In this document: piece by piece, positions 15,749 to 63,985 of the stretch
How positions within the stretch are numbered: the stretch's first letter is position 1
Layout: the number at the start of each line of letters is the position of its first letter
From: Owenia fusiformis
Lineage: Eukaryota
NCBI GenBank assembly: GCA_903813345.2
Contig: CAIIXF020000001.1
Location: forward strand, 12,958,001-13,022,000
DNA length: 64,000 nucleotides
Reading direction: 5' to 3'
The notes under the pieces: model-generated
Seen by the model: the letters and a program-made list of their open reading frames with translations, nothing else
What the model was told of the DNA's origin: nothing
Databases searched by the model: none
Position numbers and translations under genes: made by a program

Positions 15749-18700
15749 CTAGTTTACACATTTAATTTCACATGACTCGACAATTTTCGTAGATTGGCCA
15801 GATAACCATGATGAAAATTTTAATGTAAATGTTCCGGTCTTTGAACATATGAATTTCGATTTGTACGAATCGCCATTTGGCATATTTGTAGCTGTCCCAG
15901 GTCGGTTAGTTGTCGCTTTTGGTACTGTCGCCAATTTGGTTTCAACTAAACCCCTACCCGGGCCGTCCACACTGTAATGCATAAATTTAATGTCATTACT
16001 ATTTTGACGATCGGTAACATTTTTGCAAATGCCCCTCCAAAATCCTGGAAAACGAACTTATTGACTTCAAAAATTATTTTCCACAAATGTATAAAATAAA
16101 CCACTGTGACAAAATCATGACTCTTTGGACTTCAGCGCTGTAAAACGAACCCGAATGAGGGATGACACGGTCAAACAATTTTCGTTACTCATACCCACAA
16201 AAACTCATACTTTTCCATCATCAATTATTCCTTGTTCTATTGATATTATATTTTGGAAGTTCTTATCTCGATAGACCATCTGTCCTCAATCGGTTGGAAC
16301 GAGGTAACCATTTCCCCTTTGCTTATAAAGGGCCGATTGGCTTCATATCTATTCAGACAGTGGCCTATGCATGGTTACAGCATATTTCGAGCACAATACG
16401 GTAAAAATGATAAGAACTTACAGGACATGATAGATCGCATCCACGGTTTTCAATTTGTTCGGATTATTAAATGTATATTTTAGGGTGACTTCCATAGCAG
16501 CATCTTGGCCTATTTTCACGGTTGGATTTCCGTTTTGATCTCCACATAGTTTCGTCTGTGCATTGAATTCTACTCCAAGAGCACCAGCTATAAATACAGA
16601 AGATGTTTAAAATTTTACCACCACCTTCCTACGATCAAACAAATTGACAATTTACACTTAACATGTATTGCATGGATCTAGGATGAAGATCATCCTAGCA
16701 TGGATTCACTTGTGGTTCTGCTTTTACATTGGTTAATTTCTTAGCTATTTTCACATCTGATATTGATCAAGTAGCTTTTCTTAATTATTTGCAGTGTATT
16801 TTCTTCAGAAAAGATGTATTGTTTTAGAATCAAATTGTCACCTTTTACACAACCAGGCGCACTACCGCTCCACATCCCATCTCTACCACACGTCCTTAGC
16901 TTGGTACCAACCAGAACATATCCCGTATCACATGCGTACGTAGCTTTTGTTCCTGATTTGCTTGTACCAGCTGTTGTTGCGGTAGGCGTTATAGATCCGT
17001 GTACTGGTGAATTGAGTTGCGGGCACATAAATGCTACAACAACATACGTTTGAGTACAAGTATGATTTAGGTCTTCCTGAAACAAAAGCTATTATGTGTA
17101 TCAGGGAAAACTGGTAAAAATTGGCAATTTCTACCATTTCTGAAAAATCTAGATTTTGTACTCACTGCATCCAGTTAGTCGATCACATGTGTTCCCACGC
17201 TTTTTTAAAACACAGGTCTTCTCGTCCTCGTGGTCTGCAACGAATAAAGTCCATTATGTGTAAGTTTTAAGGAAAACAATTGTTCTTTAAAGGGGCAACA
17301 AGGACTGTAGAGAGAAAATTCCAAACTTTTCACTTTTTCTGAGCTACCAGGGTAACATTTGGCTTAACATCTTCATTGACATACCTATTTTCTTAAAATG
17401 TATGGATAAACTATCAATTTCAGCATTAAGAATTAGTGTTAATTCAGTTCAAAGCTTCTATAAAGGGAGTCCCAATATATAATAATAATAAAAATATATG
17501 TTAGTCTTGATGAAGTATCCAAACTTCAATCTATTTTGACACTGGTCGGTGATCGTTGAATCTGTACTAATTCACGCCCGGTGATCGTGAATATGGGACG
17601 GAGGGGGGAGCAGGCAATTTCTGCTAGGAAATTCTACAAATCTGGAAGATTTATTTTTTCAAGAAAAAGTTTTCTATTGAATTGCTAAATGGATAGGCGC
17701 ACGGTATGGTAGAATATGTTAGGTTTTCTGGGATTTTTTCTGAAACGATACGCATCTAAGGTATGAGATCTATTAAAAAAGGCGCAAGGCCATCAACAGG
17801 CACAAATCAACGTTTTTGCTATAAATCAAGCAACAATGGTCTGGACGACCTGTAATAAATACTTGTAAGTGATGTTATCATAAATAAATTAATGTCATTG
17901 CTGAATTTATAAAATAAGTTTCCATATGTGAAATAAAAAAATCGAAAATAATGAATTTGGGACGGAGGGGGGGGGGAGGGGACGGAGGGGGAGCAATATG
18001 TATATAAGACATGATTAGAGATGTTTCGCGACTTTAAGTCCTTTTACTCCAAATGTCCCCATTTTTCAGTCTCCAGGGGTATATCATCCAGTTCTTACTA
18101 AGTTAATGAGTTCATTTTTCAAATACAAGAATTCGTGTGAAGTTGTTTCACTTTATAGAATTATTACTCCCCCTCCGTCCCCTCCCCCCCCTCCGTCCCA
18201 TTTTAATTATTTTCGATTATTTTTTATTTTACGTATGGAAACTTATTTTATAAATTCAGCAATGACATTAATTTAGTTATGATAACATCACTTACAAGTA
18301 TTTATTACAGGTCGTGTAGTCCATTGTTGCTTGATTTATAGCAAACACTTTGACTTTTGCACGTTGGTTGCGTTGCGCCTTTTTTAATAGATCTTATATC
18401 TTAAAAGAGTATCGGTTGAAAAATAATCCTAGAATACCTAACATATTTTATCATACCGTGCGCTTATTCAATTTGCAATTCAATCGTAAACTCTGTCTTG
18501 AAAAAATAATTTTACCAGATTTGTTGAATTTTCTAGCGGAAATTGCCTGCTCCCCCCCCTCCGTCCCATTTTCACGATCACCGGGCGTGTAATTGTTGCA
18601 CCTTTAAATGATACGGTTACTATAACAGTGTACAATCTACCTGGTCCAACTGGATCACAAAAACGTGAAGAACCTTCACATGATCTTGTACTTTTGCATT

Positions 18701-21700
18701 TGGCTTTTGCAGGCCCACTTAGTGTAAAGCATGTGTCACATGAGTATGTAGCCGTGCATGTACCTCTCAAGCATCTCTTTAGCATGCCTCCATTTTTTGG
18801 TCTTGTCGGTACGTGATCCTTAGTTTCTAGAACAAACAAGGCCAGGATGTTTTAACGTTTACGCATAACCATAACTGAGCCCCAGTTGTTATGGGATAGT
18901 TAGTTCTGGACATAATGTTGGAAATATGTTTATCTCCCTCGGGAAAGCTCCCTATACATAGTACTATATAAACTTTATCAATGCAATATTTAAGAAAAAT
19001 ATTTTGAAGTTGCACGTAAAGGACTACCCTGCGTGCAGAGTCTAGTTAAACTAGAGACGAAGCTCTCTTTTAAGAAGTGGAGTCAAACGAATGCAAAGGG
19101 TAGTAAAGGACAAAATACGGTGACGCGTTTATGAATTTCTTTGCAAGGAAATGAAGGTGTATTTACCCGAGATAAAGATAAACCCCATGGTAGTGGTAAA
19201 TGTACCACTCATTTATAAAGAGATGAAACATGTGCCACTCATTTCTAAAGAGTTGCAAACACATTCACTCAATTAATGTTGGAATTACAGACAAAGTAAA
19301 TTTACTTAATGCCTCAGTCACATTTGATCTACGGCAACCGTACGGCGGCCGTGGCTTCCCAAAACCGAAAGAAACATACAGCATAAAATAGGGATAAGTA
19401 GTACAATGTAGATTTTCTACATCGATTTTGTGAAGCTACGGCCGTCATAGAGCAAATGTGACTGAGGCTTGAAGACAAGTCTGGCTACAAGCCTCTGTGA
19501 ACCCCCTCTACTTGACTACACACCTTTGTTGTACTACTACTACTACTACTAATACTGCTACATAGAATACTTTAAGACCACACGACCCTCGTGAATGATA
19601 TGTAATAATGCATTTGTTTCACCTGGTCTTGGTGTGGTTGTCGTAGTTGTTGTTGTGGTGATTTTCGGTTTCAGTCGATGGACTCGTTGAGCGAATTGCC
19701 CAATGTAGTTGCCAGGTGGCGTGTACTGACAACAGACGGTATACGTGTTCCACATTCCCTTCTTTCCGCTAGCTAAACCACAACCAACCGATTCAGTGTT
19801 ATCCCAGACTAACTAAGAAGTCAGATTCACAATCTTTATTAAATAATTCGGAATCGGCATTTCTTTGAATTGCAAACACAAATGCGTAGCGAGGACCAAA
19901 AATAGGCGATGCGGCAAAACCAAGGAGGACACAATACTTCATAATTTTCGGTTTCAAACTGAAAATGTCTACCTGTTTCTCTTAAACCAGTCATCAAAAG
20001 ATTCTGAAAATTTTACATATAGTCAATCTAATGATCATCTTTTGAATGAAAAAAAAATTAATTGAAAAGATATAATCAGATACGTCTTTTGTTCTTGGTA
20101 TATTCGGGATGAAACGAAACATCTATCTGGACCTCATTGGAACAAAACGTCTTTAGGTCTCTCAATATTGTTGTACAAAGGAAAGTTTAGTTGATTTTTA
20201 AAAAAAAGTCTCTTGTTAGTGAAATAAAAGGTTTACATTATTTTTATCTATCTTTTTAAAAAAAAATTGAATACTTTTTGTTAAATCAACCAAATTTTCC
20301 TTTGTATTACTATAATATTGAGAAGTCTATGAAAAGGTTGTATGCTATTCTGTTCCAACAAGGTTTGGAAACATCTTTTATTTCATTCCCAAGAATTGGT
20401 AGAATGGAACAAAAACAATTGGACTAAAAATCAAAAAATGTTAACAAAAACGGTTAGAAAAAATATATTTAAACATTTTTTGCCTTTGTCAATTAGTGAC
20501 CATTACATAAAGGGCCATGCTTTTTTACAGAATGTTTACAATAATTGTATTTTAGAGAAAATCAATGTTGAATTCAGTTCGCCATATCGATACCAATCCT
20601 TTTAGTTTTACAGTTAGCAGTATATTATTATGTAGGTCAATATTAGAATAAAATGTGTATACTTACTTGTGTGAAGTGACCAGTCTTTGTGCCGAAGACA
20701 GGTTTTTTGTAATCGTAATACTTGATCTCATCATACCTAATGAATATAATCACAGGATAAGCAAATCGTAGACCTAGTTTTATCTATTGGGATGTGTTTT
20801 ATTACCCTTCGAATTCGTTTGACCAAGCTTCTTAAAGATAGCATCGTCTACACGAGGGAAACTGACAAAGCCAAGCAGAGCTTGTCAACATGTTGTTGTT
20901 GGATTCAAAGGATGCAGTGCATGCTTTTCTGTTTTGAATACTACATTGTATGCTAATTAGAATCTATATTATGTGACTAAAAGACTGTCGGCATTTCGGC
21001 TGACTATTTCTACTTGTAAAGTAATCTCTCGGGAAGAAACGGAATCCACGTCTGCATTAGAATTCGATTGTTTTGGCTAATTTATGAATTTAATGGTGCT
21101 CACCAATCTTGAGCAGCCTTAATCCCAAAACTGTCTAGATGATTTGGTTGCGCCTTGATGGTGGATGACATTCTCCAAAGATTCTCACCAGCATGGGGAT
21201 TCTTGCGTGATGCACTCGAGGAGTGGGCAAACCTAAAACAGTTCCGGTGTAAAAGAAATTATGGTCGCCTGGGGATTATGGTCCCCTTTCCTTACGGCCC
21301 TTACTGGCCCCGAGTGTGTGTAAATAATAAGGTAAATAATTGTAATTAGGTCACCATATAAATCAATAGAGAGTATGACCAAAATTTGATAGGACCACCT
21401 ACCCTTTTACACCGTACTACAGAAGAAAAACTATATTTGATATTATTTTGAACTAGGATTTTTGTTAATATATTGACGTTCCATCTCAATTTTGTAACTT
21501 TGTAGATGGAGACCGTGTTGGAATGCTGATTTTGATTTTAAATATTCGTTTTCAAGAGTTATTATATTTTGAATTATATTATGGAACAAATTGGTTAGTT
21601 TCTTTACCACTTGCACCTCTTCTATGATCAATATTACTTACTCGAGTCTCTAGCCAATACTTGGCCACGATACAATGGCCTTAGAAGAAGGTAAAATATT

Positions 21701-21938
21701 ACAGCTTTGATTAACATACAGTTACTTACCTTCCGGTACGCGCCAGCGATCTGCAGTAATTCAGGGCACGCGTTGCCATCGACTTATGCCATTTCAAAGG
21801 AGGTGTATTTTCATGAAGAGCTCTCAGTTCATTATGTCTTTTGAGGATGTTCTTCTCAAATACTGTCGTTTGAGAATACCCAAATCCAATCTGTTCCAGA
21901 ATCAAAATAGAGGAACAATATAGAAGTAATATCCCCAT
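15749..21938 (-). CDS. Gene A: secreted CAP/SCP - Thr linker - sushi-like - sushi - unknown C-terminal domain protein, 477 aa. Exons 21938-21730, 21232-21104, 20736-20667, 19812-19623, 18826-18641, 17234-17166, 17033-16842, 16587-16422, 15971-15749
   Basis: All introns GT-AG, phases consistent, 1434-nt open CDS. Signal peptide MGILLLYCSSILIL; CAP motifs HNELRALH..PPLKW, FAHS, GENLW, WYDE, GHFTQLVW, VGCG, VCCQY.PPGN; sushi CPQL..P.HG...ATYAC..GY.LVG..LRTC...G.WSG.AP.C. AATAAA just after the stop. Confidence 0.9.
17573..18589. mobile_element. Transib-like palindromic MITE in gene A intron 5
   Basis: TAATT|CACGCCCGGTGATCGTGAA...TTCACGATCACCGGGCGTG|TAATT: CAC..GTG termini, 5-bp TSD, ~420-bp arms. 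Confidence 0.85.
19025..19102. mobile_element. 78-bp mini element with 9-bp TSD
   Basis: GTAAAGGAC|TACCCTGC...GCAAAGGGTA|GTAAAGGAC. Confidence 0.85.
19310..19469. mobile_element. PIF/Harbinger-like MITE
   Basis: TIR GCCTCAGTCACATTTG / CAAATGTGACTGAGGC; shares the GTCACATTTG core with 40644-40783 and 62824-63597. Confidence 0.7.
21245..21414. mobile_element. ~170-bp MITE in gene A intron 1
   Basis: TIR CGGTGTAAAAG / CTTTTACACCG; inverted second copy at 48710-48878. Confidence 0.75.
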
Positions 21939-21997
21939 CACAGTTCACTTTGTTTGAGAGACGCTATAAACGTTCTATGGGTATTAACGCATTGCTT

Positions 21998-22003
21998 TTT
22001 ATA
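21998..22003 (-). promoter_or_regulatory. Putative TATA box of gene A
   Basis: TATAAA on the minus strand ~60 bp upstream of ATG 21938; gene B has one at a similar position. Confidence 0.5.
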
Positions 22004-37400: not shown

Positions 37401-38281
37401 CCATTTTTATTATAGAAAAACCAGGTTCTTTTGGTCATAACTCCACAAGTATTCAATCAGTTTTCTTGAAATTGTACAGGTACCTTAAAGGCCGGTTTTA
37501 AAGTTGCTAGCAACTCCCATTAAAATATCAGGTTACATCCACACTTTAACATAGTACAGAAAGTCAGGATTAGTAAGTAATTAACAGCATTGCTTAATAC
37601 TTGATTCTGATTGGTTAAGTTTGAGGACTAAATTTGAAAAATGTTATTTCTGTTTTTAAATGTCTTATCACAACCCAATAAAAGGATGAAGTTAAAATCT
37701 AAATGCAGAATATGAACATCAATACATTGAAAGATATACATAACAAAATTGGAAGCAATACATTTTCTCAATCAATATGAAATTTGAGAAAATTGACCAG
37801 TTTTGTGAAAATATCAAAAATCCACTTATTTTGGCTGTTCCATTATTTTGCCTCCTGTTTATACCCCATGTCCCTCTTTAATTATGGATAAATAAACAAT
37901 TTGCAAAAAGAATACCCAATTTGGAAGGGGCCTAACCTGATTATTTCTTGCAACTCCAAACCTTTGACTTTCCTAAGATTGATCAAAGTATATCGCACCA
38001 AGCATCAAACATAGCTTCACAAATTGTAACGAAAGCCCTTTTGAGGAAACATCTCGTATACTACGACTAGTTACTTACCTACCGGTACTCTCCAAACTTT
38101 TGCAGTGTTTCAGGGCACGAGCTGCAAGTATTCGATGCCATTTAAAAGGAGGTGTATTTTCATGAAGAGCTCTAAGATCATTGTGACTTTGTAATATGAT
38201 CCTTTCAAACGGAGTTCTCTGAGCATGTCCAAGTCCAACCAAGATCACAAGAGACAAACTCAACACTACCAATGAGATCAT
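31500..38281 (-). CDS. Gene B: paralog of gene A, 477 aa. Exons 38281-38079, 36821-36693, 36446-36377, 36173-35981, 35006-34818, 34579-34511, 34199-34008, 32415-32247, 31719-31500
   Basis: Same nine exons and phases, GT-AG introns, 1434-nt open CDS. Signal peptide MISLVVLSLSLVILVGLGHA; HNDLRALH, FAHS, GENLW, WYNE, GHFTQIVW, LGCG, VCCQYSPHGN, T10 linker, sushi domain, C-terminal domain ending CEIECV*. Confidence 0.9.
32471..32765. mobile_element. 295-bp MITE with 7-bp TSD (possibly P superfamily) in gene B intron 7
   Basis: AGAATAA|CCAAGGAGGATTGGCTCCCAG...CTGGGAGCCAATCCTCCTTGG|AGAATAA. Confidence 0.8.
33553..33996 (-). repeat. Interspersed repeat, inverted partner of 35099-35585
   Basis: Ends ...GAGATTTCAAAAGCTATATGGAAACTGTA, the reverse complement of the start of the 35099 copy. 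Confidence 0.8.
35099..35585 (+). repeat. Interspersed repeat, inverted partner of 33553-33996
   Basis: Starts TATAGTTTCCATATAGCTTTTGAAATCTCG; alignable over ~450 bp. Confidence 0.8.
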
Positions 38282-38366
38282 CTCGTTTGCAAGAAACACC
38301 GAGGATAACTGACTGGATGTTTCATGCACACGATTGCTCAAGATGTGTTTTGCTTGCTTTAGACCG

Positions 38367-38373
38367 TTTTATA
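38367..38373 (-). promoter_or_regulatory. Putative TATA box of gene B
   Basis: TATAAAA on the minus strand ~86 bp upstream of ATG 38281. Confidence 0.5.
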
Positions 38374-54200: not shown

Positions 54201-57200
54201 TGCATTGATGTCAGAGATCAAGCAGTGGTAGATCCTAAGAGAGTTGAATCTGCTCGGAAGATAGAGGCTGTTGTTGAACTGTGTGGAGCTCCTGTTAAGT
54301 GCCTAGTAGATACAGGATCAGTGGTGTCTTTGATGAGCCTAGACAGCTTCAACCGAATCAACTACCGGAAGAGACCAAAACTGAAACCAGCCAAAGATGT
54401 CTTGGTGCAAGCCAATGGATCCCCTATAGCAATCTATGGCACGTGCTCTGTGGAACTTAAGCGAGATGGGAGGAAGACCCCTTTGGAGATGGTGGTTGCT
54501 GAAATTAGCCTGGATGGAATCCTAGGGACAGACTACCTGTTGGCTAGCAAGGCTGAGATCCATTACGGCTCCTTACAGATGAGGTCCCGAGAAGAGAGGT
54601 CCAAGGAGCCAAGAACCTTTGTTACTCCCTTCCAGAACAGAAGGAAGAGACGAAGAAGAAAGCAGAAGAAGGAGGATCCAACAAATGATGAGGCTGGAGA
54701 TACCATGAGGCTCCGGAAGAGGAGCAAAGTTGACTCTCCTGAAGTGAAGAGCTGGGATGCCTCTAAAAGACCTGATGTACCTACAATCCTTACTGAGGGA
54801 AGGTCAAGTAGCGGGGCAAGACGGTCGTGTGTTAGCGAGTTGAAAGGAGAGGCTTCTCTTCCTTTTACAAGTCGAGCCAACAAATCCAAAGGGTCATCAA
54901 AGGAGCAGTCAGAAGAAAGTTTACCATGCAGGGCGAGACCAAGGCATCAAAGAAGACAACCAGCGTTTGTTGTAAGAGACAAGATGAACTGGAGAGAGAT
55001 GGACTCCTCACTGACGTTCGAGCATGCAGAGGCAGGGCGAACTGAGGAGCCACGGAGCTTCATCCCAGTGGTGCAAGAGGAGCAATGACAGAGGAGCCCA
55101 AATGGCTCCTTCCCTAAATATGACAATCTTAAGTTAAGATAGTTAGTTGAATGAGCAATTACTGATCATGATCATGTGATTTTTTGAGAGGAGATAAGTT
55201 AGCTCTTTACTAATATTTATTGTTGTAAGAGGTGCTCGAGCTCTCTATATATTTTTGTAGAAGTTAAGTTTACATTGTGTGATCGTGGGCGATCAAGCTT
55301 AGTAGGGGGGAGTGTGGGAATTTTTAATTCCCCCTGAGTAGTACTAGGGCCTGTGAAACGTTTATTTTACAGGATTTTATGTTATTTCATGTTTATTCAA
55401 TGTTCCGTCCCTGTAATTTGGATGTTTACTTGATCAGCAAGCTGGGTTGGAATAAATTTGCATAATTAGGCACCCAGCAACAGAGCTCAGCCAATCAGAT
55501 GTCTTTATTTGAATTTACCGCCAATGTAAGTTGTAGTTTTCCCATGATGCATTCTGAGATGACTGGGATTAGAGTGTGAGAAAGTGACCTGTAAATCAGA
55601 GTAAACCAAGACTTTGCAGAGGAAACACCTCGTCAGTTTGTATCATTTTATGTGGGAGCGTGTTCGATGTGAATTGAGAACTATATTAGACTATATTACA
55701 GGTTATTTGGATTATTTGCTGTCATTATTGCTGCAGTTTTGCATTCGTTTTGCATTCGTTTTTGACTGTGCGAGAAACAAGAAGATAACAGCCAGTTTTG
55801 GGTGAGTTGGCAATTTGATTATTGAGTTTGACGCCATATTGCTGTCCGCCATTTTGATTTCTTCTTCCCAGAATTCCAAGCGGTCAGCCATCTTTGTTTT
55901 GACGGAAGTGACGTCATTTTAAGAAGTAATTCCTCCTCCGAGTAATTAAGGCTCTTGTCTAATCTCAGTTGTGATTGATATTCGAGAGTTGTATCTGCTC
56001 CGAGGATTGCCAGCTCCGAGTGATTACTCTTCCGATTATTTAAGTGTTATATCTCCTCAGAGTTATATTTGGTCCGAGTAGTTACAGCTCTGTCTAATCT
56101 CAGTTGTGATTGATATTCGAGAGTTGTATCTGCTCCGAGGACTCACTGCTCCGAGTGCTTACTCCTCAATCTATTCTAGAGTGGAATCTGCTCCGAGGGT
56201 TGAGGATACAGCTCCGTCTAATCTCAGTTTAATGATCGATATTCGTGAGTTGCTCCTTCTCCTCCTCCGAGTTATTGATGATCCGAAATTGATACAAGTT
56301 GCTGAACTTGACGCATCCTCCGAGGTTATTTGACTCCTCCAGAAGTTAGGTACTGAGGTTACACTACCGGAACCAAAGTATCCCTGGGTTGCAAGGTTTA
56401 CTCTCATTGGAGCCAAGGTTACACTCCCGGAACTGAGGTACTCCACGATCGAGAAGTGGCAGCTCTGGTCTAATCTCACCATTTGATTGACATTCCAGAG
56501 TTGTTATTTCTCTGTAGAAGCTGTAGTGGTCTCTCTTGTGAAGTGGTGACTCCTTGAGCAGAAGTTACTCCAGAGCCTGGACTCCTTCCAAGAGACAGTG
56601 TGAGTAGAGGTTGAGAAGAGATTACTGTGGTGACGAGGTTACTATAGAGACGAGAAGACTCCCGGTGCGGAAGGTACTCCCAAGAGCCAGGGTTGCGTTC
56701 AGGAGCAGAGGTTTCCCCTGAGACGAGACAACTCCTGGAGTGGAAGGTACTCCAATAGCTAGGGTCTTGTACAAAAGAAGAGGTTTCTCCTGTGAAGTGG
56801 CGACTCCCCAAGCAGAAGATACTCCTGGAGCCTGGACCCCTTCCATGAGACAGTTTTATAGAGACAAAATAACTCCTTGAACCAAGGTTACACTTCCGGA
56901 ACCAAAACTCCTGGAGCCCTGATTCCTCCGAGGTGACACGACCTAGAGGGACAGCGCAGTGAAGATTATTTGGAGCATTTATAACTTGGGTCTAATCTCA
57001 GTTTTGATTGACGTTCCTGAGTTATTCCTCCTCCATAGATATCACATTGAAGCCGTGATATAGACGAGACGATACCTAGAGCAGAAGGAACTCCCCCGAG
57101 GTTAAATTCCAGTTTAGAGGTGAAGAAAGCTGCAGAGGAGCAGATCCTCCTCAGGCCATTTTACCAGTTGGAGCAGAAGGACCTCCTAGAGGGTGAAGAT

Positions 57201-60200
57201 AGTTCAGAGGAGCAGATCCTCCTCCTCTTACAATTATTCAAGAAGGAACAATTACAGAGACATTCAAGCTCTATATAGACATTTTTGAAATTATTTGTAG
57301 TATTATTTTACGTTGGAATAGATTATAAAATCCCTGTATACCATTGTTATATTGCCATCTTTGAAAGGTAACTGCCGTACCACCAAACCAGGTCGGCACC
57401 CGTGTATAACACCTCCAAGATCCCTTATATCGTCCCTGGCCTTTCCTGAAGTTTGCATACAGGGTACTCCTGGGAATCGGCCCGGCGCGACAATATGTTT
57501 ACATTTAACTTAAAGGACAAGTTTGACTTAAGATAACATGGATACCGATTCCCGAGACCTATCGGTGAGTGACAAATATCAGTAAATCGGTCGAAAAATT
57601 GTTTTGAATTGTATATTTTTTCCAAAATTCCACCAACCGTTCTCGAAAATTATTTTTTCAAATTGAACAACATTCAATTTAGCTATAGTCTACCAGCCTA
57701 CCTACTGAGTAATTGAATTTGTATTCTTTCGTCACACAGTTTCATGTGTATTGCACTGTTTAATCTTCACATTGATCTATATCTATAATATCCTGTACCA
57801 GGACTATAACAGATAATCGTGGATTGAATATTAGTTTCGGGACAAATGAACTCTTCTAATCTATCAAGTCGGTCTGATTCTTAACAGCCATTTGATAGTT
57901 TTGATTTTTTGTCAGCCCAATCATGCATCAATATAGTCTATGTTCAATATGCTTGAGCAATTTTCTGAAAGAATGACGGAATGTATTGCAACAGGTTCAG
58001 TGGCTTTGGGGACAAATGAACTCTTCTATCAAGTCGGTCTGATTCTTAACAGCCATTTGAAGTTTTGATTTTTTGTCAGCCCAATCATGCATCAATATAG
58101 TCTATGTTCAATATGCTTGAGCAATTTTCTGAAAGAATGACGGTTTGTATTGCAACAGGTTCAGTGGCGTAGCGTGGGTATTCTATGAGTGTACTCGACG
58201 AGTGAGTGAAGCGAACGAGCTTTGAGGGGGTGGGGGTTCTTTCCCCCAAGGGAACTTGAAAAAATTAGATTGCATTTGAAGTGTCTGGTGCGTTTTAAAA
58301 TACGAAATTCCGACTACGAAAAAATAATATGGATTAATAAAATGTTAGGTATTACTTCAGAATATCAAACGTGGGTTTTTTCGTTCGATTATTTTGATTT
58401 TCATTCTATCTTCTTCGTCCTGCGGGACTATACTAGGCATAGGCCCGGAACATGTATAACATTGAGTCAAATTCACTTATAGAACATGCTGTAAGCTTTA
58501 TTTCTTTACATTTTTACGGGCCTATGCCTGGGCTATGACTCTAGACCTAGACTACTAGATCTATAGGACTTAGACTAGCCTAAAGCTACAGCCTTAGATC
58601 TAGCTCTTTCAGAGGCTGTGACTGATATGTTAAAACAGTCTTTAGAGCCCCCTATCAACCGCTTCAAAATTGTGTTAGTGTCCTCGAAAAAAATTAAAAG
58701 GTGCTTCTGTGCCGAACAGCAAATTCTCATTATACATTGAGAAGATACTCTTTACCAAGAAACCAAAAATGGAAGTTTTGACGGAAAGACATGACGTACA
58801 AGTCAAAATCTCTGAATCTTGCTAGGTACATGACAGATAAAGAGAATTTAAATCCTGATCGGCAAAGAAACGGCTAATAACTTACATATTTTCTAAACAA
58901 AAAGCACTGATGTAGCTCACATTGGGAGATAGTAGTAAGCACTTTATTGAAGTTGATTTCAGTAGATCAGTTACACCTTTCATGATTTCAAGGAAAGACG
59001 CAAAGTATCCGTCAAAAGAGAAAAGCTTACATAAATGCGAGCAAAATCTGCAGATTTATTATAGCTATTGACTTCTCGAATATGTTGAACGCACAACTCT
59101 AAACAATACTTGAAATTGAATAAAATTGACAAAATATGAGAAGACAGTCTAAAACCTAACTGGGAGAGCTGCCAGATTGTTTGCCCGGAAATCTTCAGAG
59201 ATTTTGACTGGTACTTTGTGTCTTTCCATCAAAATTGCCATTTTGGTTTCTCGCTGGGTAATTCAGTTATTCACAGATGAAGAGAAATCTTGATTGACAA
59301 AAATGCAGCTGATAGCTAACAGCTTTTCTTAAACAGAAGATAAAGGAAGATATAAAGGAACCTGTTATGATTTTGAAGCGGGTGATAGCCGATAGCGGGC
59401 ATGTTAAGGCTGTAAGTAGAGGGTGTAGCAATAAATCTAACCCAAATAGAGTTTAACACATCTCAGTAAAGGCAAAATTAAAATTCATTAAAGTTTCATT
59501 ACTTTAGCATGTGTACATTTGCTGGCCTTCTAATATTTTGCCAATAGATTTGTTAGGCTTGATTGCAAATTCTTATGAAATATATGAGTGTATGGTTTCA
59601 ATGTGCTGTACTCCCGATATTTTTCGCATGCAATTTAGTTTCGTGCTTTTCGCGATTGTGTAAAAATCACGAAAATTAATAGTCGCGAATATCGCCAATT
59701 AAAGGCTGAGGTGCAACATGCCATTGACTAAGATCTAGAGATTGTAAATCTTATCCAAAGTATATGATATTGGGTAGGTGTAATTACTGTAGATAAGGTA
59801 AATTAATTTTGAGGATTCAGAGAATAATGGAAGTTAAACCTTTGATATCCGCAAAATTTAATGGCCGCAAAATTGGTATTTCTCAAAATATTCATGAAAT
59901 TTAAACTCGCAAATTAACCGGTAGTACAGTATTTGCATGTGGAATAATTATGATATTGAGAGCATTGATGAAACAAATGCAATGAACTGATTTGATTGGC
60001 CAAGGGAGCATTGGAATTTTGACCTGAAGTTCACATGATTGTTGCTATAGGCCTTATGATTTTTTGGAATTCCAGTAATACTATTAATGCCTATTATACT
60101 TATACAGTAAAACCTGTCTAATCCAAATGCCACCGCTACCAATTAAAAACATTCAGATTTAAACGTCTGATTTCGAGGTTTTTGCATCCGAAAGATTCTT

Positions 60201-63200
60201 GATTTTGAAAAAATATTAATGCATTTTCACTTAATATTACTAGCATTGTAGACGTTATGATTTTTTGGAATTCCAGTAATACTATTATACTTATACAGTA
60301 ATATCTGTCTAATCCAAATGCCACCATGACCAGTTAAAACACCATGACCAGTTAAAATACAACATTCAGATGTGGAGGTGATCGGATTTCGAGGTTTTTG
60401 CATTCACAAGATTCTGCATTTTAAAAATATAAATGCATTTTCACTAAAACGTATTAAGATTACTTTTGACCGCATAGCTTTATGACATTCATGAATCCAA
60501 ATCGAATGCTTGAAAGGTAGATTCTAAAACAGAAGTGTGCAATCAGAGATGATAGATACTATCGCATGAGTATATGAAGGCCATGTGTCAACTCTTCGAT
60601 TGATAATACGCCTCGAAATAAACACCCACTGGCTTGGGAAAGCTATTTTCCCTCTTAATAAATGCCTGTCCCCTTGGAAAAATGTTTTCAATTTCCCTTT
60701 TAGTTAATAAAAGCCAATGGCATTTATTTTGAGTTCTTTCTAATAAAGGCCCTGTGCAAAATTAATGCTCAGTGGGCCTATATGTTCGTTGAATTTAAAA
60801 TTACCCCTTCTACTCAATTTTTATAAATGTTTTATGCATCAGTATGTTGCATTTGGAGATGGGGTCTTTGCACCTTCCCTGTCTCAATGTCCATTTTTTT
60901 TATCATCTCTATGAGTACTTTTCCTTCAGATAATGCATTGGCCTAACATACACACCTTACATTTTCAGAAAATTTCTGCAAATTTCTGTACATATGACCG
61001 TCTAAATTCTGTTGCGAAACCTTTAGTATTCTTTCAAGCAATTTCCTGCTTACATGAAAGTCTTTTACATTCTGTTTTTTTTAATGTAACATAATGGCTG
61101 ATATCAATATTGTTCAAAGTTGTATATGTTTACACTATGGAACTAATCATTCTTTGAATTGAGTTCGATTCCTGAACAACTTGATATTTGACTAAACATT
61201 CATTGGATTTGATTTGGTTTGATGAAGAGAAATCTTGACTGACAAAAATGCAGCTGATAACTAACAGATTTTCCCAAACAGAAAATATAAACAAAATTTA
61301 AAGTGAGCACTTGATTTCAATAGTTTAGTTTCACCTATGCTTTTGAAGCGGGTGATAGCTGATAGGTGTCATGTAAAGGCTTTGAGTACATGGTATAGCA
61401 ATAATTAAAGGTCAGAAGGTACTGTTTCATTCATATTTCTTGGTTTTAAAAACATTTAATCAAATAAGCTGGAAATTTTTCTGAGAAATGATATGATGGT
61501 GAAAGAAATAGATACAAAATTATAAAAAATTCATAATTAGCGAAAATTGATATCCGCAAAATTTCAAAATTGCAAAATTGTGAAAGATAACAGCATCAAA
61601 TATTAGTGGCAGTACAGTATTTGCATGTGAAATAATTATGATATATTAATATAATAATATAATAATTGATGAAACAATTGCAATGAACTGTTTTGATTAG
61701 CCAAGGCCAGAGCATTGGAATTTGAACTAAAGTTGAGTATAATGTTATTGTATAAATTAAAAAAATAATTATGGAGACTTCTTACAAAGTTGGTCTTCAT
61801 TTCAAATAGCTGAGAATATTTTCCAAAATAGATTGACTAGGCCTTCAGATTTTTTTGATGTTCAGTATTACTATTACTTATACAGTAAAACCTGTCTAAT
61901 CCAAATGCCACCGTGCAGTTAAAAGCATTCAGATTGGGAGGTGTTCGTTATCACAATAGATTATAATCATATCATTGATAATTTAGAGTTATTCAAAGAT
62001 GGCAGCAGCATTCTCAGAACCTGACAATCAGAATCTCATTAATCTTTTGTTCACGTTAGTTATTTAAACTTTATATTCATATATAGATGGCAGTTCTTAA
62101 ATATATGATAGACACCAATAATTCAACATCATAATTTAACCTTTTCCATTAAATATACCCTGTATCAAGCACAAAAACGTATTTACACCCTTTACTAAAA
62201 TGGCAACCCCTGTATCACGCACTTGTTTAGTAAAAAAATAATGGTTATCATAAAATAAACTGATTACCAATTCCAACGGGATCACAAAAGCGTAAAGACC
62301 CATCACATAGGTTTATACTCTGGCAATTTGCTTTCTTTGGTCCACTTAGTCCAAAACATGTGTCACATTTGTATATAGCTTTACATACACCATTTGGTCT
62401 ACAACCGACTTCCACCTCACCATTCATAGGGTCCGAAGGTACATGGTCACTCGTTTCTGAAGAAATAGAGGTACTGTTGATGCTTTTTATTGTTTGTTTT
62501 ACTGGTCATTAATCATTATCAGGACAAGGAAGCGACATTTACATTCTCTTTCAAAATGATGGACAGTAATGGTCAATTACGATATTTTTGATTTTCATCC
62601 GATTAAATATTTTTTATTTTCATTAAATTAAAGCACATTGCCGTGTACATTTGGCTTGACAACCACACTTTGCTTGTATGACATAGAAACTCATCAACTC
62701 ATTAGTCGCGTGTGGACGCCATGATTCAACTATATCATCTACCACTTGAGGCTTATTGAATACCATGCCTAAGGCCTACTGCTAAAGGGCAGGGTGGCAA
62801 ATCGACAACTTGGGTGACAGTAACACCACAGTCACATTTGTCGCACGGCGGCCGTACGAAATGGCTTGAGTCTGACGTAGTGTTTTGATGGGTTATGTAT
62901 CTTTGGAAACAGTTTTTCAGGTCAGGTTTGCTGTCATATCTTTGCTGTGAACACAGCGCAATAGGTATACTGTTGTGTAAGGTCACCGATGCACAACAAC
63001 TTATATTGCAAAAGATTAACACCCCAGTCAAATGTGTCGTACGGCGACCGTACGTCGACCGCAGATCAATAAAATCAGTGAATTTCTACGCCGAGCGTAA
63101 GAAAACTACGCTCGTCTTGCGGTCTCCGTACGGTATATCCAGTTTTTTACACGCCGCAGGGTAGCCGTAGAAATTATAACTCGGAGTTATAATATTTGTC

Positions 63201-63985
63201 CATTTCTGCGGTCCCCGTAGGAATTAACAGACCGTTACCAGACCGCACAACGGTCCCATGGTGGACGTACTCCGGGGTTACGTTGACTTGCGTCTGCCGT
63301 AGTGTTTTGATGAGTAATGCACCTTTGGAAATTGTTTAAAAAAGTTTAAGTTACTATTGGTCAATGTATCACTTAACACTTTTTATTTGATATAACATTC
63401 ATAAATTGAACTGATTTGAATTAGATAAAAATAAAAAGGTACGTTATCACCAGAAATTCTAAATTCGCCGTGCGGCTGCCGTAGGAAATGTGACTGCAAA
63501 AGTCTCCGACCGCAGAAATTCTATGGCGAGCGTAGAAATGTTACTGACCGCAGAAATGGTAGACTGTGCGGTCGTCGTAGGAAATGTGACTGGGGTGTTA
63601 CGTGAATTCTTTGTTTGCCAGGCGGAGTTTTTTTACAGTTTTTGGCTAACAAATCATGCGGAAAGAGCTCAAAATTGTGAAAAACTGCATGATTTTAAAA
63701 TAATGTCTGGACGGGGGAGGAGGGGGGGGGGACTTTCGTCCCCCCTTTGGCTATAGTTACGCGCCTGGTATGTGCATCATACACAAATGTGTCACCTGGT
63801 CTTGGTGTGGTTGTCGTAGTTGTTGTTGTGGTGGTTTTCGGTTTCAGTGGATGGACTCGTTGAGCGAATTGTCCCCTGTAGTTGCCAGGCGGCGAGTATT
63901 GGCAGCAGACCGTATAGGAGAACCACATTCCATGTTTTCCCTCAGCTATACCACAGCCAAGAAATTCAGAGTTATCCCAAACAAG
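39294..63985 (-). CDS. Gene C: third paralog, 5'-partial (exons 1-3 outside window). Exons 63985-63796, 62456-62268, 46803-46735, 40284-40090, 39950-39782, 39519-39294
   Basis: All six visible exons are open, GT-AG and in the same phases as A/B: LVWDNSEFLGCG..VCCQYSPPGN..T10PRP; SDHVPSDPMNG..CDGSLRFCDPVG; HKDENACVRKGTGNTCDKQLGC; FRCPQLKSPEHG..WSGDSAPSC; KIGQDAFMEV; ..CDIECVEM*. Introns 5 and 6 are expanded to ~15.5 and ~6.5 kb. Confidence 0.85.
40383..40454. mobile_element. 72-bp mini element with 9-bp TSD
   Basis: CGTGATTGG|TACCCTGC...GCAAAGGGTA|CGTGATTGG. Confidence 0.85.
40644..40783. mobile_element. PIF/Harbinger-like MITE
   Basis: TTA|TGCCTTGGTCACATTTGCTC...GAGCAAATGTGACCAAGGCA|TTA. 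Confidence 0.85.
42159..42691. mobile_element. Truncated Tc1/mariner-type MITE inserted in the left arm of the foldback element
   Basis: Begins TA|CAGGGTGTCCAAAAAA, internally palindromic, absent from the corresponding position of the right arm. Confidence 0.7.
43920..44440 (+). pseudogene. Degenerate coding remnant, probable transposase fragment
   Basis: Interrupted frames: RIQSLEEDKICDMLLKFGMVSEDPLLNLQSICTKDVLTETI / GQQQLDVFVS*RL / KVVKADRNVLQNLITAYEANHRPVGINEIMKHELMSFPIALS; lies centrally between long TIRs. Family resemblance is from memory, not a search. Confidence 0.55.
47200..48500. mobile_element. Inverted-repeat element (approximate ends)
   Basis: CATAGTACCCCACACACAATTTTGTCGCCTACTTTGATG (~47288) is inverted at ~48357-48395. 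Confidence 0.6.
48710..48878. mobile_element. ~170-bp MITE, inverted copy of 21245-21414
   Basis: GGTGTAAAAG...CTTTTACACC; body is the reverse complement of the 21245 copy. Confidence 0.75.
48927..49593. mobile_element. Inverted-repeat element enclosing a palindromic insert (~49335-49500)
   Basis: CTTGTATTCGCGAATGCAA / TTGCATTCGCGAATACAAG termini; inner palindrome centred on CCTCGGCCTGCAGCCTCGGG. Confidence 0.6.
50533..52712 (+). repeat. 5' LTR (2180 bp)
   Basis: TGTGGGAA...GCGCGACA; direct repeat of 55313-57492 at offset 4780. Confidence 0.97.
52714..52731 (+). promoter_or_regulatory. Primer-binding site complementary to the tRNA-Leu(AAG/TAG) 3' end
   Basis: TGGTGGCAGCGGTGGGAT one base after the LTR is the reverse complement of ...ATCCCACCGCTGCCA-CCA. 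Confidence 0.85.
52747..53391 (+). CDS. Upstream ORF of the LTR element (214 aa), probable N-terminal/coiled-coil part of Gag
   Basis: ATG just after the PBS; acidic then heptad-like segment; overlaps the gag ORF, which lies in the -1 frame. Confidence 0.55.
   Translation: MSEMSQKCERSPETMEQEGSRRDDVRTGGIVRLVPKMGLKHLETPQRDRCPEEHSGSEGTSLPRDEEKLFPSEEESLGVPLMTVDDTLPEDLDDRARATLVRGEPRVISPDMTMKILPDVEKEDTGYHAESRLRRDVPASALRRDHWARGKREFDSTKSRLMSLEGSLGTLRVDVLKMRDCLLSRQRSSSQRKRWKCVEKPWTQYSREEKLKSR
53286..55088 (+). CDS. gag: Gag (capsid, two CCHC zinc knuckles) - aspartic protease polyprotein with basic tail
   Basis: FDGKTPWLDYKAHF capsid start; CRRCGEEGHIVRRC and CFNCSERGHLSIDC; protease LVDTGS and GILGTD. 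True start uncertain (track start is TTG). Confidence 0.92.
   Translation: MFTEQATVKLAEKAMEMCGKALDSVQQGRKTKIKITQLFDGKTPWLDYKAHFQNCVESNQWTDEEKRQNLTNQLRGDAQQLVQELEEGHTYDELKEALTKRFGPGEKASLYEAQLNTRVRQSKESLQSLGQSIRRLASLAYPEMSRSSQDRLARRSFEKAITDDDVRAAVHRRAPKSLDEAIEEAQKEEAYQESERIRRGLKPKQLDPHISIVTSDPVEEKLLKMMEDMKTEMMKEMDEALKLFKEQRELRAPRSIICRRCGEEGHIVRRCPLVTCFNCSERGHLSIDCPKSKKSRDARGVHPVCCIDVRDQAVVDPKRVESARKIEAVVELCGAPVKCLVDTGSVVSLMSLDSFNRINYRKRPKLKPAKDVLVQANGSPIAIYGTCSVELKRDGRKTPLEMVVAEISLDGILGTDYLLASKAEIHYGSLQMRSREERSKEPRTFVTPFQNRRKRRRRKQKKEDPTNDEAGDTMRLRKRSKVDSPEVKSWDASKRPDVPTILTEGRSSSGARRSCVSELKGEASLPFTSRANKSKGSSKEQSEESLPCRARPRHQRRQPAFVVRDKMNWREMDSSLTFEHAEAGRTEEPRSFIPVVQEEQ
55301..55312 (+). promoter_or_regulatory. 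Polypurine tract
   Basis: AGTAGGGGGGAG immediately before the 3' LTR. Confidence 0.9.
55313..57492 (+). repeat. 3' LTR (2180 bp)
   Basis: Near-identical to the 5' LTR; four substitutions found by eye. Confidence 0.97.
57839..58168 (+). repeat. Tandem duplication, 2 x ~170 bp
   Basis: GGGACAAATGAACTCTTCTA...GCAACAGGTTCAGTGGC at 57839 and 58009. Confidence 0.9.
58640..59400. mobile_element. Degenerate inverted-repeat element (approximate ends)
   Basis: CTATCAACCGCTTCAAAAT versus ATTTTGAAGCGGGTGATAG; GTCAAAATCTCTGAA versus TTCAGAGATTTTGAC. Confidence 0.55.
62824..63597. mobile_element. PIF/Harbinger-like MITE in gene C intron 4
   Basis: TAA|CACCACAGTCACATTT...AAATGTGACTGGGGTG|TTA, with CG-rich TACGG/CCGTA subterminal motifs. 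Confidence 0.7.

What the first reader, a model, noticed from the sequence alone, without database searches (positions are those of the whole stretch)
15749..63985. Tandem family of secreted CAP - Thr linker - sushi-like - sushi - unknown-domain proteins
Seen: three head-to-tail paralogs with identical exon structure and phases; A and B are intact 477-aa ORFs with signal peptides and TATA boxes, and C is intact in all six visible exons despite ~22 kb in two TE-filled introns. Known: CAP/SCP domains occur in venoms, secretions, fertilisation and immunity, and sushi/CCP domains mediate extracellular binding. The His/Glu/Glu/His cavity residues (FAHS, GENL, WY.E, GHFTQ) are retained in A and B. 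Inference: I do not recognise this architecture from any characterised CAP subfamily (CRISP, GLIPR, GAPR-1, CRISPLD, antigen 5), so it may be an undescribed lineage-specific, diversifying secreted effector family (mucus, toxin, adhesive or defence). The ORF track hides it because the exons are short.
Basis: partly seen in the sequence, partly recalled or inferred. Interest (0 to 1): 0.8.

Follow-up and report, generated by a model that had tools for sequence, protein, structure and literature searches.

The report
Owenia secreted CAP–sushi gene cluster
Three neighbouring genes of the tube worm Owenia fusiformis encode secreted proteins that join a common CAP domain to two sushi-type modules and an unnamed beta-sandwich domain, a combination so far found only in this worm and of unknown function.

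Summary
On the minus strand lie three head-to-tail paralogs with the same nine-exon plan and intron phases: A (15749-21938, 477 aa), B (31500-38281, 477 aa) and C (39294-63985, exons 4-9 only; exons 1-3 lie beyond the window). All visible introns are GT-AG. My model of A is letter-identical to a public 477-aa "unnamed protein product" of the annelid Owenia fusiformis. Spliced cDNA-like contigs confirm four junctions of A, including CAP exon 4 to exon 5, and two exon boundaries of B.

Architecture: signal peptide, GAPR-1/Pry1-type CAP domain with an intact His/Glu/Glu/His tetrad, Thr-rich linker, degenerate CCP module, a 23-residue connector with three cysteines, a canonical sushi module, and a ~128-aa Ig-like beta-sandwich with no Pfam family.

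Only two other proteins share the full architecture, and both are Owenia proteins on the same chromosome.

The "diversifying" part is not supported: pairwise dN/dS is 0.18-0.33 overall and similar in each domain.

Best reading: a lineage-restricted, constrained family of secreted extracellular binding proteins. Interest is modest.

The parts
15749..21938 (-). Gene A, complete CDS of 9 exons (477 aa): 21938-21730, 21232-21104, 20736-20667, 19812-19623, 18826-18641, 17234-17166, 17033-16842, 16587-16422, 15971-15749 (stop included).
   Evidence: Splice-site model. Letter-identical to the public Owenia protein P0001. Junctions e2-e3, e3-e4, e4-e5 and e5-e6 are seen in cDNA-like contigs.
21996..22003 (-). 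TATAAAAA motif 58-65 nt upstream of the ATG of gene A.
   Evidence: Read from the sequence. It is only a motif; the start of transcription was not mapped.
19623..21938 (-). Gene A exons 1-4: signal peptide (aa 1-~23), CAP domain (aa ~24-186) and Thr-rich linker (aa 187-199).
   Evidence: Pfam CAP, residues 32-165, E 1.3e-16. Pry1 CAP domain E 4.7e-26 and GAPR-1 E 7.1e-22, with the tetrad residues aligned.
17166..18826 (-). Gene A exons 5 and 6 (both phase 1-1): degenerate CCP-like module with 7 Cys (aa 200-261) and a 23-aa connector with 3 Cys (aa 262-284).
   Evidence: hhalign against the family's own sushi exon: probability 64%, E 6.5e-5, 30 columns. No Pfam hit. In the second model this part aligns as the first of two tandem CCPs.
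16842..17033 (-). Gene A exon 7 (phase 1-1): canonical sushi/CCP module (aa 285-348).
   Evidence: Pfam Sushi E 2.3e-11 on the exon alone. VIA Z 10.8, rmsd 0.9 A over 62 residues to an E-selectin SCR.
15749..16587 (-). Gene A exons 8 and 9: C-terminal all-beta domain (aa 349-477, 4 conserved Cys) with no named family.
   Evidence: pLDDT 65-91 per block of ten residues. Generic Ig-like sandwich, tied at Z 7.6-8.8. No consistent Pfam hit.
31500..38281 (-). Gene B, complete CDS of 9 exons (477 aa): 38281-38079, 36821-36693, 36446-36377, 36173-35981, 35006-34818, 34579-34511, 34199-34008, 32415-32247, 31719-31500.
   Evidence: Model; 60% identical to A. One cDNA-like contig piece ends exactly at exon 7 (34008-34199). 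Another covers 38077-38331, which is exon 1 plus the 5' UTR.
38367..38373 (-). TATAAAA motif upstream of gene B.
   Evidence: Read from the sequence. It lies 36-42 nt upstream of the contig end at 38331.
39294..63985 (-). Gene C, exons 4-9 only: 63985-63796, 62456-62268, 46803-46735, 40284-40090, 39950-39782, 39519-39294. Exons 1-3 lie beyond the window.
   Evidence: Model. Open frame of 345 aa; dN/dS 0.33 against A and 0.18 against B.
50533..57492 (+). LTR retrotransposon inside intron 5 of gene C. Two 2.18-kb LTRs (50533-52712 and 55313-57492, 99.8% identical) flank a gag, zinc-knuckle and aspartyl-protease ORF (53277-55088). No reverse transcriptase was seen.
41246..46471 (.). Repeat element inside intron 6 of gene C, bounded by inverted repeats of 915 nt (97.8% identical). 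An inner inverted pair lies at 42692-43129 and 45112-45552.
   Evidence: Self-blastn of the window. It was not classified further.

Best explanation
This is part of a tandem array of paralogous genes in the annelid Owenia fusiformis. At least three genes lie in the window and at least five on the chromosome. The genes are expressed and selectively constrained.

Shown:
- The gene models and the splicing of the CAP exons to the downstream exons.
- The domain order: signal-peptide-like N-terminus, GAPR-1/Pry1-type CAP domain, a run of 9-10 Thr flanked by Pro, a degenerate CCP module, a 23-residue connector with three cysteines, a canonical CCP/sushi module, and a ~128-residue Ig-like beta-sandwich without a named family.
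- Conservation of all 22 cysteines of the mature protein, of the CAP His/Glu/Glu/His tetrad and of the aromatic loop.
- Purifying selection in every domain.

Inferred:
- The proteins are secreted and soluble, since there is no transmembrane segment or hydrophobic tail.
- The Thr run acts as an O-glycosylated spacer.
- The CAP head binds a divalent cation and probably a sterol or lipid, as in yeast Pry1.
- The CCP and beta-sandwich modules hold the protein on an extracellular partner such as matrix, mucus or tube lining, or a cell or microbial surface.
- The array grew by old tandem duplications (dS about 0.7-1.4). The 1-1 phase exons fit assembly of the architecture by exon shuffling.
For: Gene models:
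- Canonical splice sites and identical phases in all three copies.
- Model A is identical to public protein P0001 of Owenia fusiformis.

Splicing (cDNA-like contigs of runs X7 and X8, two studies):
- Joints 20734>21102, 19809>20667 and 18826>19623.
- A loose end at 18641 whose 30 letters are unique in the window at 17205-17234, which is exon 6 of A.
- Pieces that end exactly at B exon 7 and that cover B exon 1.

Domains:
- Pfam CAP E 1.3e-16 and Sushi E 6.1e-10.
- The CAP domain is closest to Pry1 (E 4.7e-26) and GAPR-1 (E 7.1e-22), with tetrad residues H73, E86, E116 and H133 aligned.
- The tetrad and the Y-x-[YF]-x4-F loop are kept in 4 of 4 members that cover them. All 22 mature cysteines are kept in every member that covers them.
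- Pry1's tetrad binds Mg2+, and its CAP domain binds cholesterol (PMC4921858, passages read). Sterol binding needs the aromatic caveolin-binding loop (PMC7340583, passages read).
- Sushi fold: Z 10.8, rmsd 0.9 A over 62 residues.
- C-terminal beta-sandwich: pLDDT 65-91 per block.
- In the second model the CCP-like module aligns as a tandem CCP pair: 4c16_A covers residues 202-348 with 118 aligned. The Foldseek E-value for that chain improves from 6.4e-5 to 7.1e-7.

Selection: dN/dS 0.18-0.33 overall.

Distribution:
- Of the best 150 of 14,773 HMMER hits, only P0002 and P0029 match end to end.
- Of 26 profile hits, only the three Owenia proteins cover more than 49% of the query.
Against: - No function was tested, and no signal-peptide or glycosylation predictor was available.
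- The CAP domain stayed below pLDDT 50 in both models, so its fold and cavity rest on sequence alignment only.
- The tandem-CCP alignment has rmsd 6.8 A, and its Z (10.8) is no higher than for the sushi module alone. The fold of exon 5 is therefore suggested, not shown.
- Two raw RNA-seq runs of the same species label (X13, X14) gave almost no depth on the exons of A and B and only one junction read. Expression is therefore restricted or low in those samples.
- Runs X7 and X8 are labelled RNA only as a guess. Their spliced contigs are what argues for cDNA.
- The restriction to Owenia rests on truncated or word-filtered searches. About 154 HMMER hits between E 1e-43 and 1e-30 were not listed. 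No eukaryote genome could be searched.
Confidence: 0.6

Rival explanations
1. One reading: a rapidly diversifying secreted effector family, such as a toxin or an arms-race defence protein, evolving under positive selection.
For: The genes are tandemly duplicated, lineage-restricted, secreted and cysteine-rich. CAP domains also occur in venoms; snake CRISPs and wasp antigen 5 appear among the weaker PDB sequence hits. The 23-codon exon 6 gives dN/dS 0.77 in one pair, A-C.
Against: Pairwise dN/dS is 0.29, 0.33 and 0.18 overall, and 0.12-0.34 in every domain of 50 codons or more. All 22 mature cysteines and the CAP tetrad are conserved. The duplicates are old (dS 0.7-1.4). The CAP domain is of the GAPR-1/Pry1 type and lacks the CRISP hinge/ICR that carries channel-blocking activity in venom CRISPs; Pfam finds only CAP and Sushi. 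Pairwise averages cannot exclude a few positively selected sites.
Confidence: 0.1
2. A structural or adhesive component of the worm's mucus or tube lining.
For: The proteins look secreted and carry a mucin-like Thr run. From general knowledge, Owenia builds a tube of sand grains on a secreted lining. A GAPR-1-type CAP domain joined to two TSP1 domains is reported in the skeletal organic matrix of red coral (PMC7853314, passages read).
Against: The Thr run is only 9-10 residues. There are no long low-complexity or repeat regions typical of cements and mucins (protein; the tandem-repeat scan of 15000-64000 found none in the exons). No proteomic or tissue data were available. Literature searches for Owenia with CAP or secreted proteins found nothing relevant.
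Confidence: 0.15
3. A humoral recognition or complement-regulator-like immune factor that uses its CCP modules and a macroglobulin-like sandwich to bind targets.
For: There is one canonical and one degenerate CCP module. The best structural matches are complement regulators. The C-terminal sandwich matches C3 MG domains at Z 8.8.
Against: The C3 MG match is tied with HAP2 domain III, transglutaminase barrels, RbmA, PKD and CARDB domains at Z 7.6-8.8, which is a common fold. CCP modules occur in many proteins unrelated to immunity. There are no expression or induction data.
Confidence: 0.12
4. Decaying pseudogenes or gene-prediction artefacts.
For: Gene C carries 21.9 kb of repeat-rich introns and its 5' end is not visible. 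B and C did not appear as database proteins in the length-limited search. Two raw RNA runs show almost no depth.
Against: All frames are open and all visible splice sites are canonical. dN/dS is well below 1 for all three pairs. Spliced contigs exist for A and B. All cysteines are conserved.
Confidence: 0.03

Closest known systems
GAPR-1 (GLIPR2) and the yeast Pry1 CAP domain
   Same: These are the best sequence matches to the CAP domain: 5ete E 4.7e-26 and 1smb E 7.1e-22. Both are short CAP domains without a hinge or cysteine-rich extension. The His/Glu/Glu/His tetrad and the aromatic loop before GHFTQ are aligned.
   Different: From general knowledge, GAPR-1 is a single-domain protein of about 154 aa with no signal peptide. 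Pry1 carries its CAP domain at the C-terminus, residues 157-296 of the 298-residue 5jys chain. The Owenia proteins add a signal peptide, a loop about 12 residues longer after GENL, and about 290 residues of CCP and beta-sandwich modules.
CRISP, antigen 5, GLIPR1, CRISPLD and PI15/PI16 subfamilies of the CAP superfamily
   Same: Secreted CAP-domain proteins. They appear as weaker PDB sequence matches at E 1e-13 to 1e-5.
   Different: Pfam finds no CRISP hinge/ICR domain and no LCCL domain, only CAP and Sushi. None of these subfamilies is known to me to carry CCP modules; that is recalled, not tested.
Other mosaic extracellular proteins with a GAPR-1-type CAP domain: Owenia P0087 (CAP + trypsin) and red coral CR_3-4 (CAP + 2 TSP1)
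   Same: A GAPR-1-type CAP head is fused to extracellular modules. P0087 is 46% identical to A over residues 1-234. CR_3-4 is described in PMC7853314 (passages read).
   Different: The partner modules differ: a trypsin protease or TSP1 repeats instead of CCP plus beta-sandwich. P0087 lies on another chromosome-sized contig.
Complement-control-protein (sushi) module proteins such as CD46, DAF, factor H and the selectins
   Same: Exon 7 encodes a canonical CCP: Pfam E 2.3e-11 on the exon alone, and Z 10.8 at rmsd 0.9 A. Phase 1-1 exons are typical of shuffled extracellular modules (general knowledge).
   Different: There is only one canonical module plus one degenerate one. The degenerate module has 7 cysteines, lacks the first canonical Cys and the Trp, and has no Pfam hit. 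No regulator-of-complement architecture is present.

Membership tests
CAP superfamily (Pfam PF00188) | Match to the CAP profile above the curated cut-off | tested here: met
   P0001 (= gene A) scores 61.9 bits against a cut-off of 21.1, E 1.3e-16, residues 32-165. P0002 and P0029 also pass.
CAP superfamily (Pfam PF00188) | Cavity tetrad His/Glu/Glu/His in the four CAP motifs | tested here: met
   H73, E86, E116 and H133 align with the corresponding residues of Pry1 and GAPR-1. They are kept in A, B, P0002 and P0029, 4 of 4. C cannot be judged because its exons 1-3 lie outside the window.
CAP superfamily (Pfam PF00188) | Alpha-beta-alpha sandwich fold | tested here: inconclusive
   Both AlphaFold2 models have pLDDT below 50 over most of residues 24-200. 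The alignments were shallow, 3 and 18 rows, the latter mostly exon fragments.
CRISP subfamily | Hinge plus ion-channel-regulator (cysteine-rich) domain after the CAP domain | tested here: not met
   Pfam at E up to 1 finds only CAP and Sushi in P0001. A Thr linker and a CCP-like module follow the CAP domain.
CRISPLD subfamily | LCCL domains after the CAP domain | tested here: not met
   No LCCL hit in P0001, P0002 or P0029.
GAPR-1 / GLIPR2 orthologs | Single CAP domain of about 150 aa with no signal peptide | tested here: not met
   The proteins are 477 aa with a hydrophobic N-terminus and four further modules. The CAP domain is GAPR-1-like in sequence only.
Sushi / CCP module (Pfam PF00084), exon 7 | Profile match, four cysteines and a conserved Trp, CCP fold | tested here: met
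   44.3 bits against a cut-off of 20.7 on the exon alone. C288, C319, C333 and C346 are kept in 5 of 5 members, and W339 is invariant in the three full-length proteins aligned. Z 10.8, rmsd 0.9 A over 62 residues.
Sushi / CCP module, exon 5 (the 'sushi-like' part) | Profile match and CCP fold | tested here: inconclusive
   No Pfam hit at E up to 10 in 3 of 3 copies. hhalign against the family's own sushi gives probability 64%, E 6.5e-5, over 30 columns. The second model (pLDDT 67-80 for residues 211-250) aligns as the first of two tandem CCPs in 4 of 50 VIA rows (4c16, 5o32, 1upn, 5jpm), with rmsd 6.8-7.3 A. Foldseek E-values improve about 100-fold.
Any named family for the C-terminal domain (aa 349-477) | Profile or specific structural match | tested here: inconclusive
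   Pfam gives only DUF7223 at E 0.073 in 1 of 3 exon-8 copies, and one unrelated hit at E 0.13. VIA ties at Z 7.6-8.8 among unrelated Ig-like sandwiches. Atlas gives TM 0.57-0.67 to CARDB, DUF11 and NPCBM_assoc clusters, with feature scores of 0.78 or less.

The most novel reading that the evidence does not exclude
An Oweniidae-specific class of humoral proteins has evolved. In it a cation- and sterol/lipid-binding CAP head sits on a glycosylated stalk. It is aimed at a specific extracellular target by a CCP pair and by a sequence-orphan beta-sandwich domain. That domain would be a new domain family whose ligand defines the function, for example recognition of microbes or of the tube lining.
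Probability: 0.15. Interest if true: 0.5.

Novelty: new variant of a known kind. Interest (0 to 1): 0.3.

Why it matters
CAP-domain proteins are widespread, yet their mode of action is still described as elusive (abstracts of PMC8857485 and PMC11599453, seen in the search listing). A family that ties a GAPR-1/Pry1-type CAP head to defined binding modules offers a natural experiment. The partner of the CCP and beta-sandwich end would say where, and on what, the CAP head acts.

The locus also shows exon shuffling and tandem duplication building a lineage-restricted secreted protein family in an early-branching annelid. It adds one sequence-orphan beta-sandwich domain. Beyond that it is an ordinary, uncharacterised gene family.

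Tried and rejected
Tools that gave no answer:
- No whole genome is held for this window, so the array could not be extended to the right. The positions of P0002 and P0029 on the chromosome could not be found.

Expression:
- The look-up of sequencing runs listed no holder on record as RNA.
- Raw RNA runs X13 and X14 gave almost no depth over the exons of A and B and a single junction read. This says nothing firm about expression.

Searches with limited reach:
- The exon-9 search among longer proteins found only P0001, among 19 candidates. The region 196-477 search found P0001, P0002 and two sushi-only proteins. Both searches missed P0029, so the word filter is insensitive here.
- About 154 HMMER hits between E 1e-43 and 1e-30 were not listed.

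Negative or unspecific results:
- Pfam on single exons gave nothing for exons 2, 3, 5, 6 and 9 of A. It gave no consistent hit for exons 8 and 9 of A, B and C.
- Atlas feature search for residues 349-477 scored at most 0.78, which is not informative.
- Rfam on the whole window found nothing.
- The tandem-repeat scan of 15000-64000 found nothing in the exons.

Literature searches found no description of a CAP + sushi architecture or of these Owenia proteins. Subscription journals are not covered.

I considered an ML/NPC2-like lipid-binding sandwich for the C-terminal domain. No such chain appeared among the 50 rows shown by either VIA search, so it remains untested rather than excluded.

MAFFT misplaced part of B exon 2 and the first residues of the exon-9 rows in alignment A4, which adds some noise to the second model.
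Full report

Yes. The window is AT-rich eukaryotic DNA, about 34% G+C, and no whole genome is held for it. All three genes lie on the minus strand.

A tblastn of seven ORF pieces from the first copy found each of them once more at 31.5-38.2 kb. It found four of them at 39.3-64.0 kb, with E-values of 1e-12 to 1e-32. A finer scan with all short ORFs of copy A showed two more conserved short exons in all three copies.

I then set exon borders by splice site, phase and similarity.
- Gene A has nine exons between 21938 and 15749, giving 1434 nt and 477 aa.
- Gene B has nine exons between 38281 and 31500, also 1434 nt and 477 aa.
- Gene C shows exons 4-9 between 63985 and 39294, with an open frame of 345 aa. 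Its exon 4 starts at 63985, right behind an AG, so exons 1-3 lie outside the window.
- Incoming phases are 0,2,2,0,1,1,1,1,2 in every copy. Exon lengths differ only by multiples of three.
- Introns are GT..AG in 8 of 8, 8 of 8 and 5 of 5 cases.

Introns 5 and 6 of C measure 15464 and 6450 nt.
- Intron 5 holds an LTR retrotransposon with two 2.18-kb LTRs that are 99.8% identical. Its internal ORF encodes gag, two zinc knuckles and an aspartyl protease.
- Intron 6 holds a roughly 5.2-kb element bounded by 915-nt inverted repeats.

TATAAAA motifs lie upstream of A and B.

**2. Organism and public annotation**

A search with exon 9 found a 477-aa "unnamed protein product" of Owenia fusiformis, P0001, on a 62.2-Mb contig. 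It is letter-identical to my model of A. Owenia is an oweniid annelid. The gene is therefore already predicted in public data, but it has no name and no description.

**3. Transcript evidence**

I laid four runs on 18400-38399. Contig runs X7 and X8 come from two studies and are labelled RNA only as a guess. They carry these features:
- Joints 20734>21102 (cut +2), 19809>20667 and 18826>19623. These are junctions e2-e3, e3-e4 and e4-e5 of A.
- A loose end at 18641 whose 30 letters occur once in the window, at 17205-17234, which is the start of exon 6.
- A 653-nt contig with a piece that ends exactly at 34008 and 34199, the borders of B exon 7.
- A contig that covers 38077-38331, which is B exon 1 plus its 5' UTR.

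Most of their reads fall on repeats.

**4. What the proteins are**

Pfam finds CAP (residues 32-165, E 1.3e-16) and Sushi (288-346, E 6.1e-10) and nothing else.

*CAP domain.*
- Its closest solved relatives are the yeast Pry1 CAP domain (E 4.7e-26) and human GAPR-1 (E 7.1e-22). Venom CRISPs and antigen 5 are far weaker.
- In those alignments H73, E86, E116 and H133 sit on the tetrad residues.
- The tetrad and the aromatic loop Y-x-[YF]-x4-F before GHFTQ are kept in all four members that cover them.
- In Pry1 the tetrad binds Mg2+ and the CAP domain binds cholesterol (PMC4921858, passages read). Sterol binding needs the aromatic caveolin-binding loop (PMC7340583, passages read). The exact motif consensus is recalled, not taken from a call.

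*Linker.* After the CAP domain comes a run of 9-10 Thr flanked by Pro.

*Exons 5 and 6 (both phase 1-1).*
- Exon 5 encodes a 62-residue module with seven conserved cysteines. Its core, Y-x-C-D-T-C-F-x-L-S-G-x5-C, resembles a CCP.
- hhalign against the family's own sushi exon gives probability 64% and E 6.5e-5 over 30 columns. Pfam gives nothing.
- Exon 6 adds 23 residues with three cysteines, so exons 5 and 6 together hold ten.

*Exon 7 (phase 1-1).* This is a canonical sushi module.

*Exons 8 and 9.* They encode about 128 residues with four conserved cysteines and no consistent Pfam match.

**5. Structure prediction**

- Mean pLDDT was 50.5, and only residues 287-477 were confident.
- The sushi module matches an E-selectin SCR at Z 10.8, rmsd 0.9 A over 62 residues.
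- The C-terminal domain is an all-beta sandwich. It ties at Z 7.6-8.8 with HAP2 domain III, C3 MG domains, transglutaminase barrels, RbmA, PKD and CARDB domains.
- The Atlas gives TM 0.57-0.67 to CARDB, DUF11 and NPCBM_assoc clusters and no informative feature hit.
- This is a common Ig-like fold with an orphan sequence, not a new fold.

The second model added single-exon rows from B and C (alignment A4).
- Residues 211-250 rose to pLDDT 67-80.
- Tandem-CCP structures then aligned across residues 202-348. For 4c16_A, 118 residues aligned at rmsd 6.8 A with Z 10.8. Chains 5o32, 1upn and 5jpm behaved alike.
- The Foldseek E-value for 4c16_A improved from 6.4e-5 to 7.1e-7.
- This suggests that exon 5 encodes a CCP-fold module, but it does not prove it.

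The CAP part stayed below pLDDT 50 in both models.

**6. Distribution**

- HMMER against 1.84 billion representatives gave 14,773 hits at E up to 0.001. Among the 150 listed, only P0002 (63% identity, residues 15-476) and P0029 (43%, residues 22-476) match end to end.
- I scanned 22 of the 150 with Pfam: P0002 and P0029, which match end to end, and the 20 others whose best stretch lay in the CAP part. Two are CAP + Sushi (P0002, P0029), one is CAP + Trypsin (P0087), and 19 are proteins with 2-8 CAP repeats.
- The other 128 have their best stretch in the sushi part, with up to 73 stretches. I take them for multi-sushi proteins without having scanned them.
- A profile search with the three full-length proteins gave 26 hits. 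Only the three Owenia proteins, all on the 62.2-Mb contig, cover more than 49% of the query. The rest are CAP-only proteins of Trichoplax, a soft coral, a rotifer, fungi and unnamed sources, or a sushi-only protein.
- P0002 and P0029 differ from B and C, so the family has at least five genes on this chromosome.
- B and C did not turn up as database proteins within the length range searched.
- Limits: about 154 HMMER hits were not listed, and no eukaryote genome could be searched.

**7. Selection**

- Nei-Gojobori dN/dS is 0.29 (A-B, 473 codons), 0.33 (A-C, 341) and 0.18 (B-C, 340).
- By domain it is 0.12-0.34.
- The exceptions are short segments: exon 6 in the A-C pair (0.77, 23 codons) and the signal peptide (0.57, 21 codons).
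- dS is 0.5-1.8 by domain.
- All 22 cysteines of the mature protein are conserved.

The genes are old duplicates under purifying selection. The word "diversifying" is not supported, although a few selected sites cannot be excluded with three sequences.

The sushi modules of C and P0002 are 91% identical, against 52-66% for the other parts. This hints at gene conversion.

**8. How it most likely works**

Shown: the genes, their splicing, the domain order, and conservation of the residues that define the CAP cavity and loop.

Inferred:
- The proteins are secreted and soluble.
- The Thr run is an O-glycosylated spacer.
- The CAP head binds a divalent cation and probably a sterol or lipid.
- The CCP pair and the beta-sandwich hold the protein on an extracellular partner.

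I put about 0.6 on this general reading. I put much less on any particular role in tube or mucus, immunity or toxin, and I list those roles as rivals.

**9. Comparison and verdict**

- The CAP domain is a member of the CAP superfamily and is GAPR-1/Pry1-like in sequence.
- The proteins are not GAPR-1 orthologs, CRISPs or CRISPLDs, because defining features were tested and not met.
- Other mosaics with a GAPR-1-type CAP head exist: P0087 in Owenia, and a CAP + TSP1 protein in red coral skeleton (PMC7853314, passages read).
- I found no description of CAP + CCP + this C-terminal domain.
- This is a new domain arrangement of known parts plus one orphan domain, in one lineage. Interest is modest.

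Noticed in passing
window 8419-9996 (+): A beta-1,3-galactosyltransferase-like gene lies upstream of the array. ORF 9178-9996 matches Pfam Galactosyl_T at E 4.8e-30. ORF 8419-8775 carries a hydrophobic N-terminal stretch that could be its membrane anchor.
   Followed up: partly
window 50533-57492 (+): This LTR retrotransposon has unusually long LTRs (2.18 kb, 99.8% identical) and encodes only gag, zinc knuckles and an aspartyl protease. It looks like a recent, probably non-autonomous insertion in intron 5 of gene C.
   Followed up: partly
window 29739-31072: Depth here is high and strand-biased in the two raw RNA runs, about 200-250 on one strand. Many positions differ from the window in nearly all reads, so the reads probably come from other copies of a repeat. 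The stretch holds a 24-nt tandem array at 29930-30045 and a 145-nt repeat at 30059-30348.
   Followed up: no
window 19055-19102, 22785-23162, 32472-32508: Short stretches in an intron of A, in the A-B spacer and in an intron of B each have 190 to about 550 RNA reads per run that run on into unlike sequence. They look like dispersed, expressed repeats.
   Followed up: no
P0002 residues about 262-279 (not in the window): The public model P0002 has 18 extra residues between exons 5 and 6. They begin like the read-through of the conserved donor site seen in gene C (GIGNQFIL). This is probably a mis-called splice donor in the annotation.
   Followed up: partly
window 17569-18007 versus 18153-18594: An inverted duplication of about 440 nt, 87% identical, lies within intron 5 of gene A.
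   Followed up: no
P0087 (Owenia, another contig): A 628-aa Owenia protein has a closely related signal peptide and CAP head, 46% identical over residues 1-234. This head is fused to a trypsin-like protease with WxxW-type motifs on either side. The same CAP module has therefore been shuffled into another secreted mosaic.
   Followed up: partly
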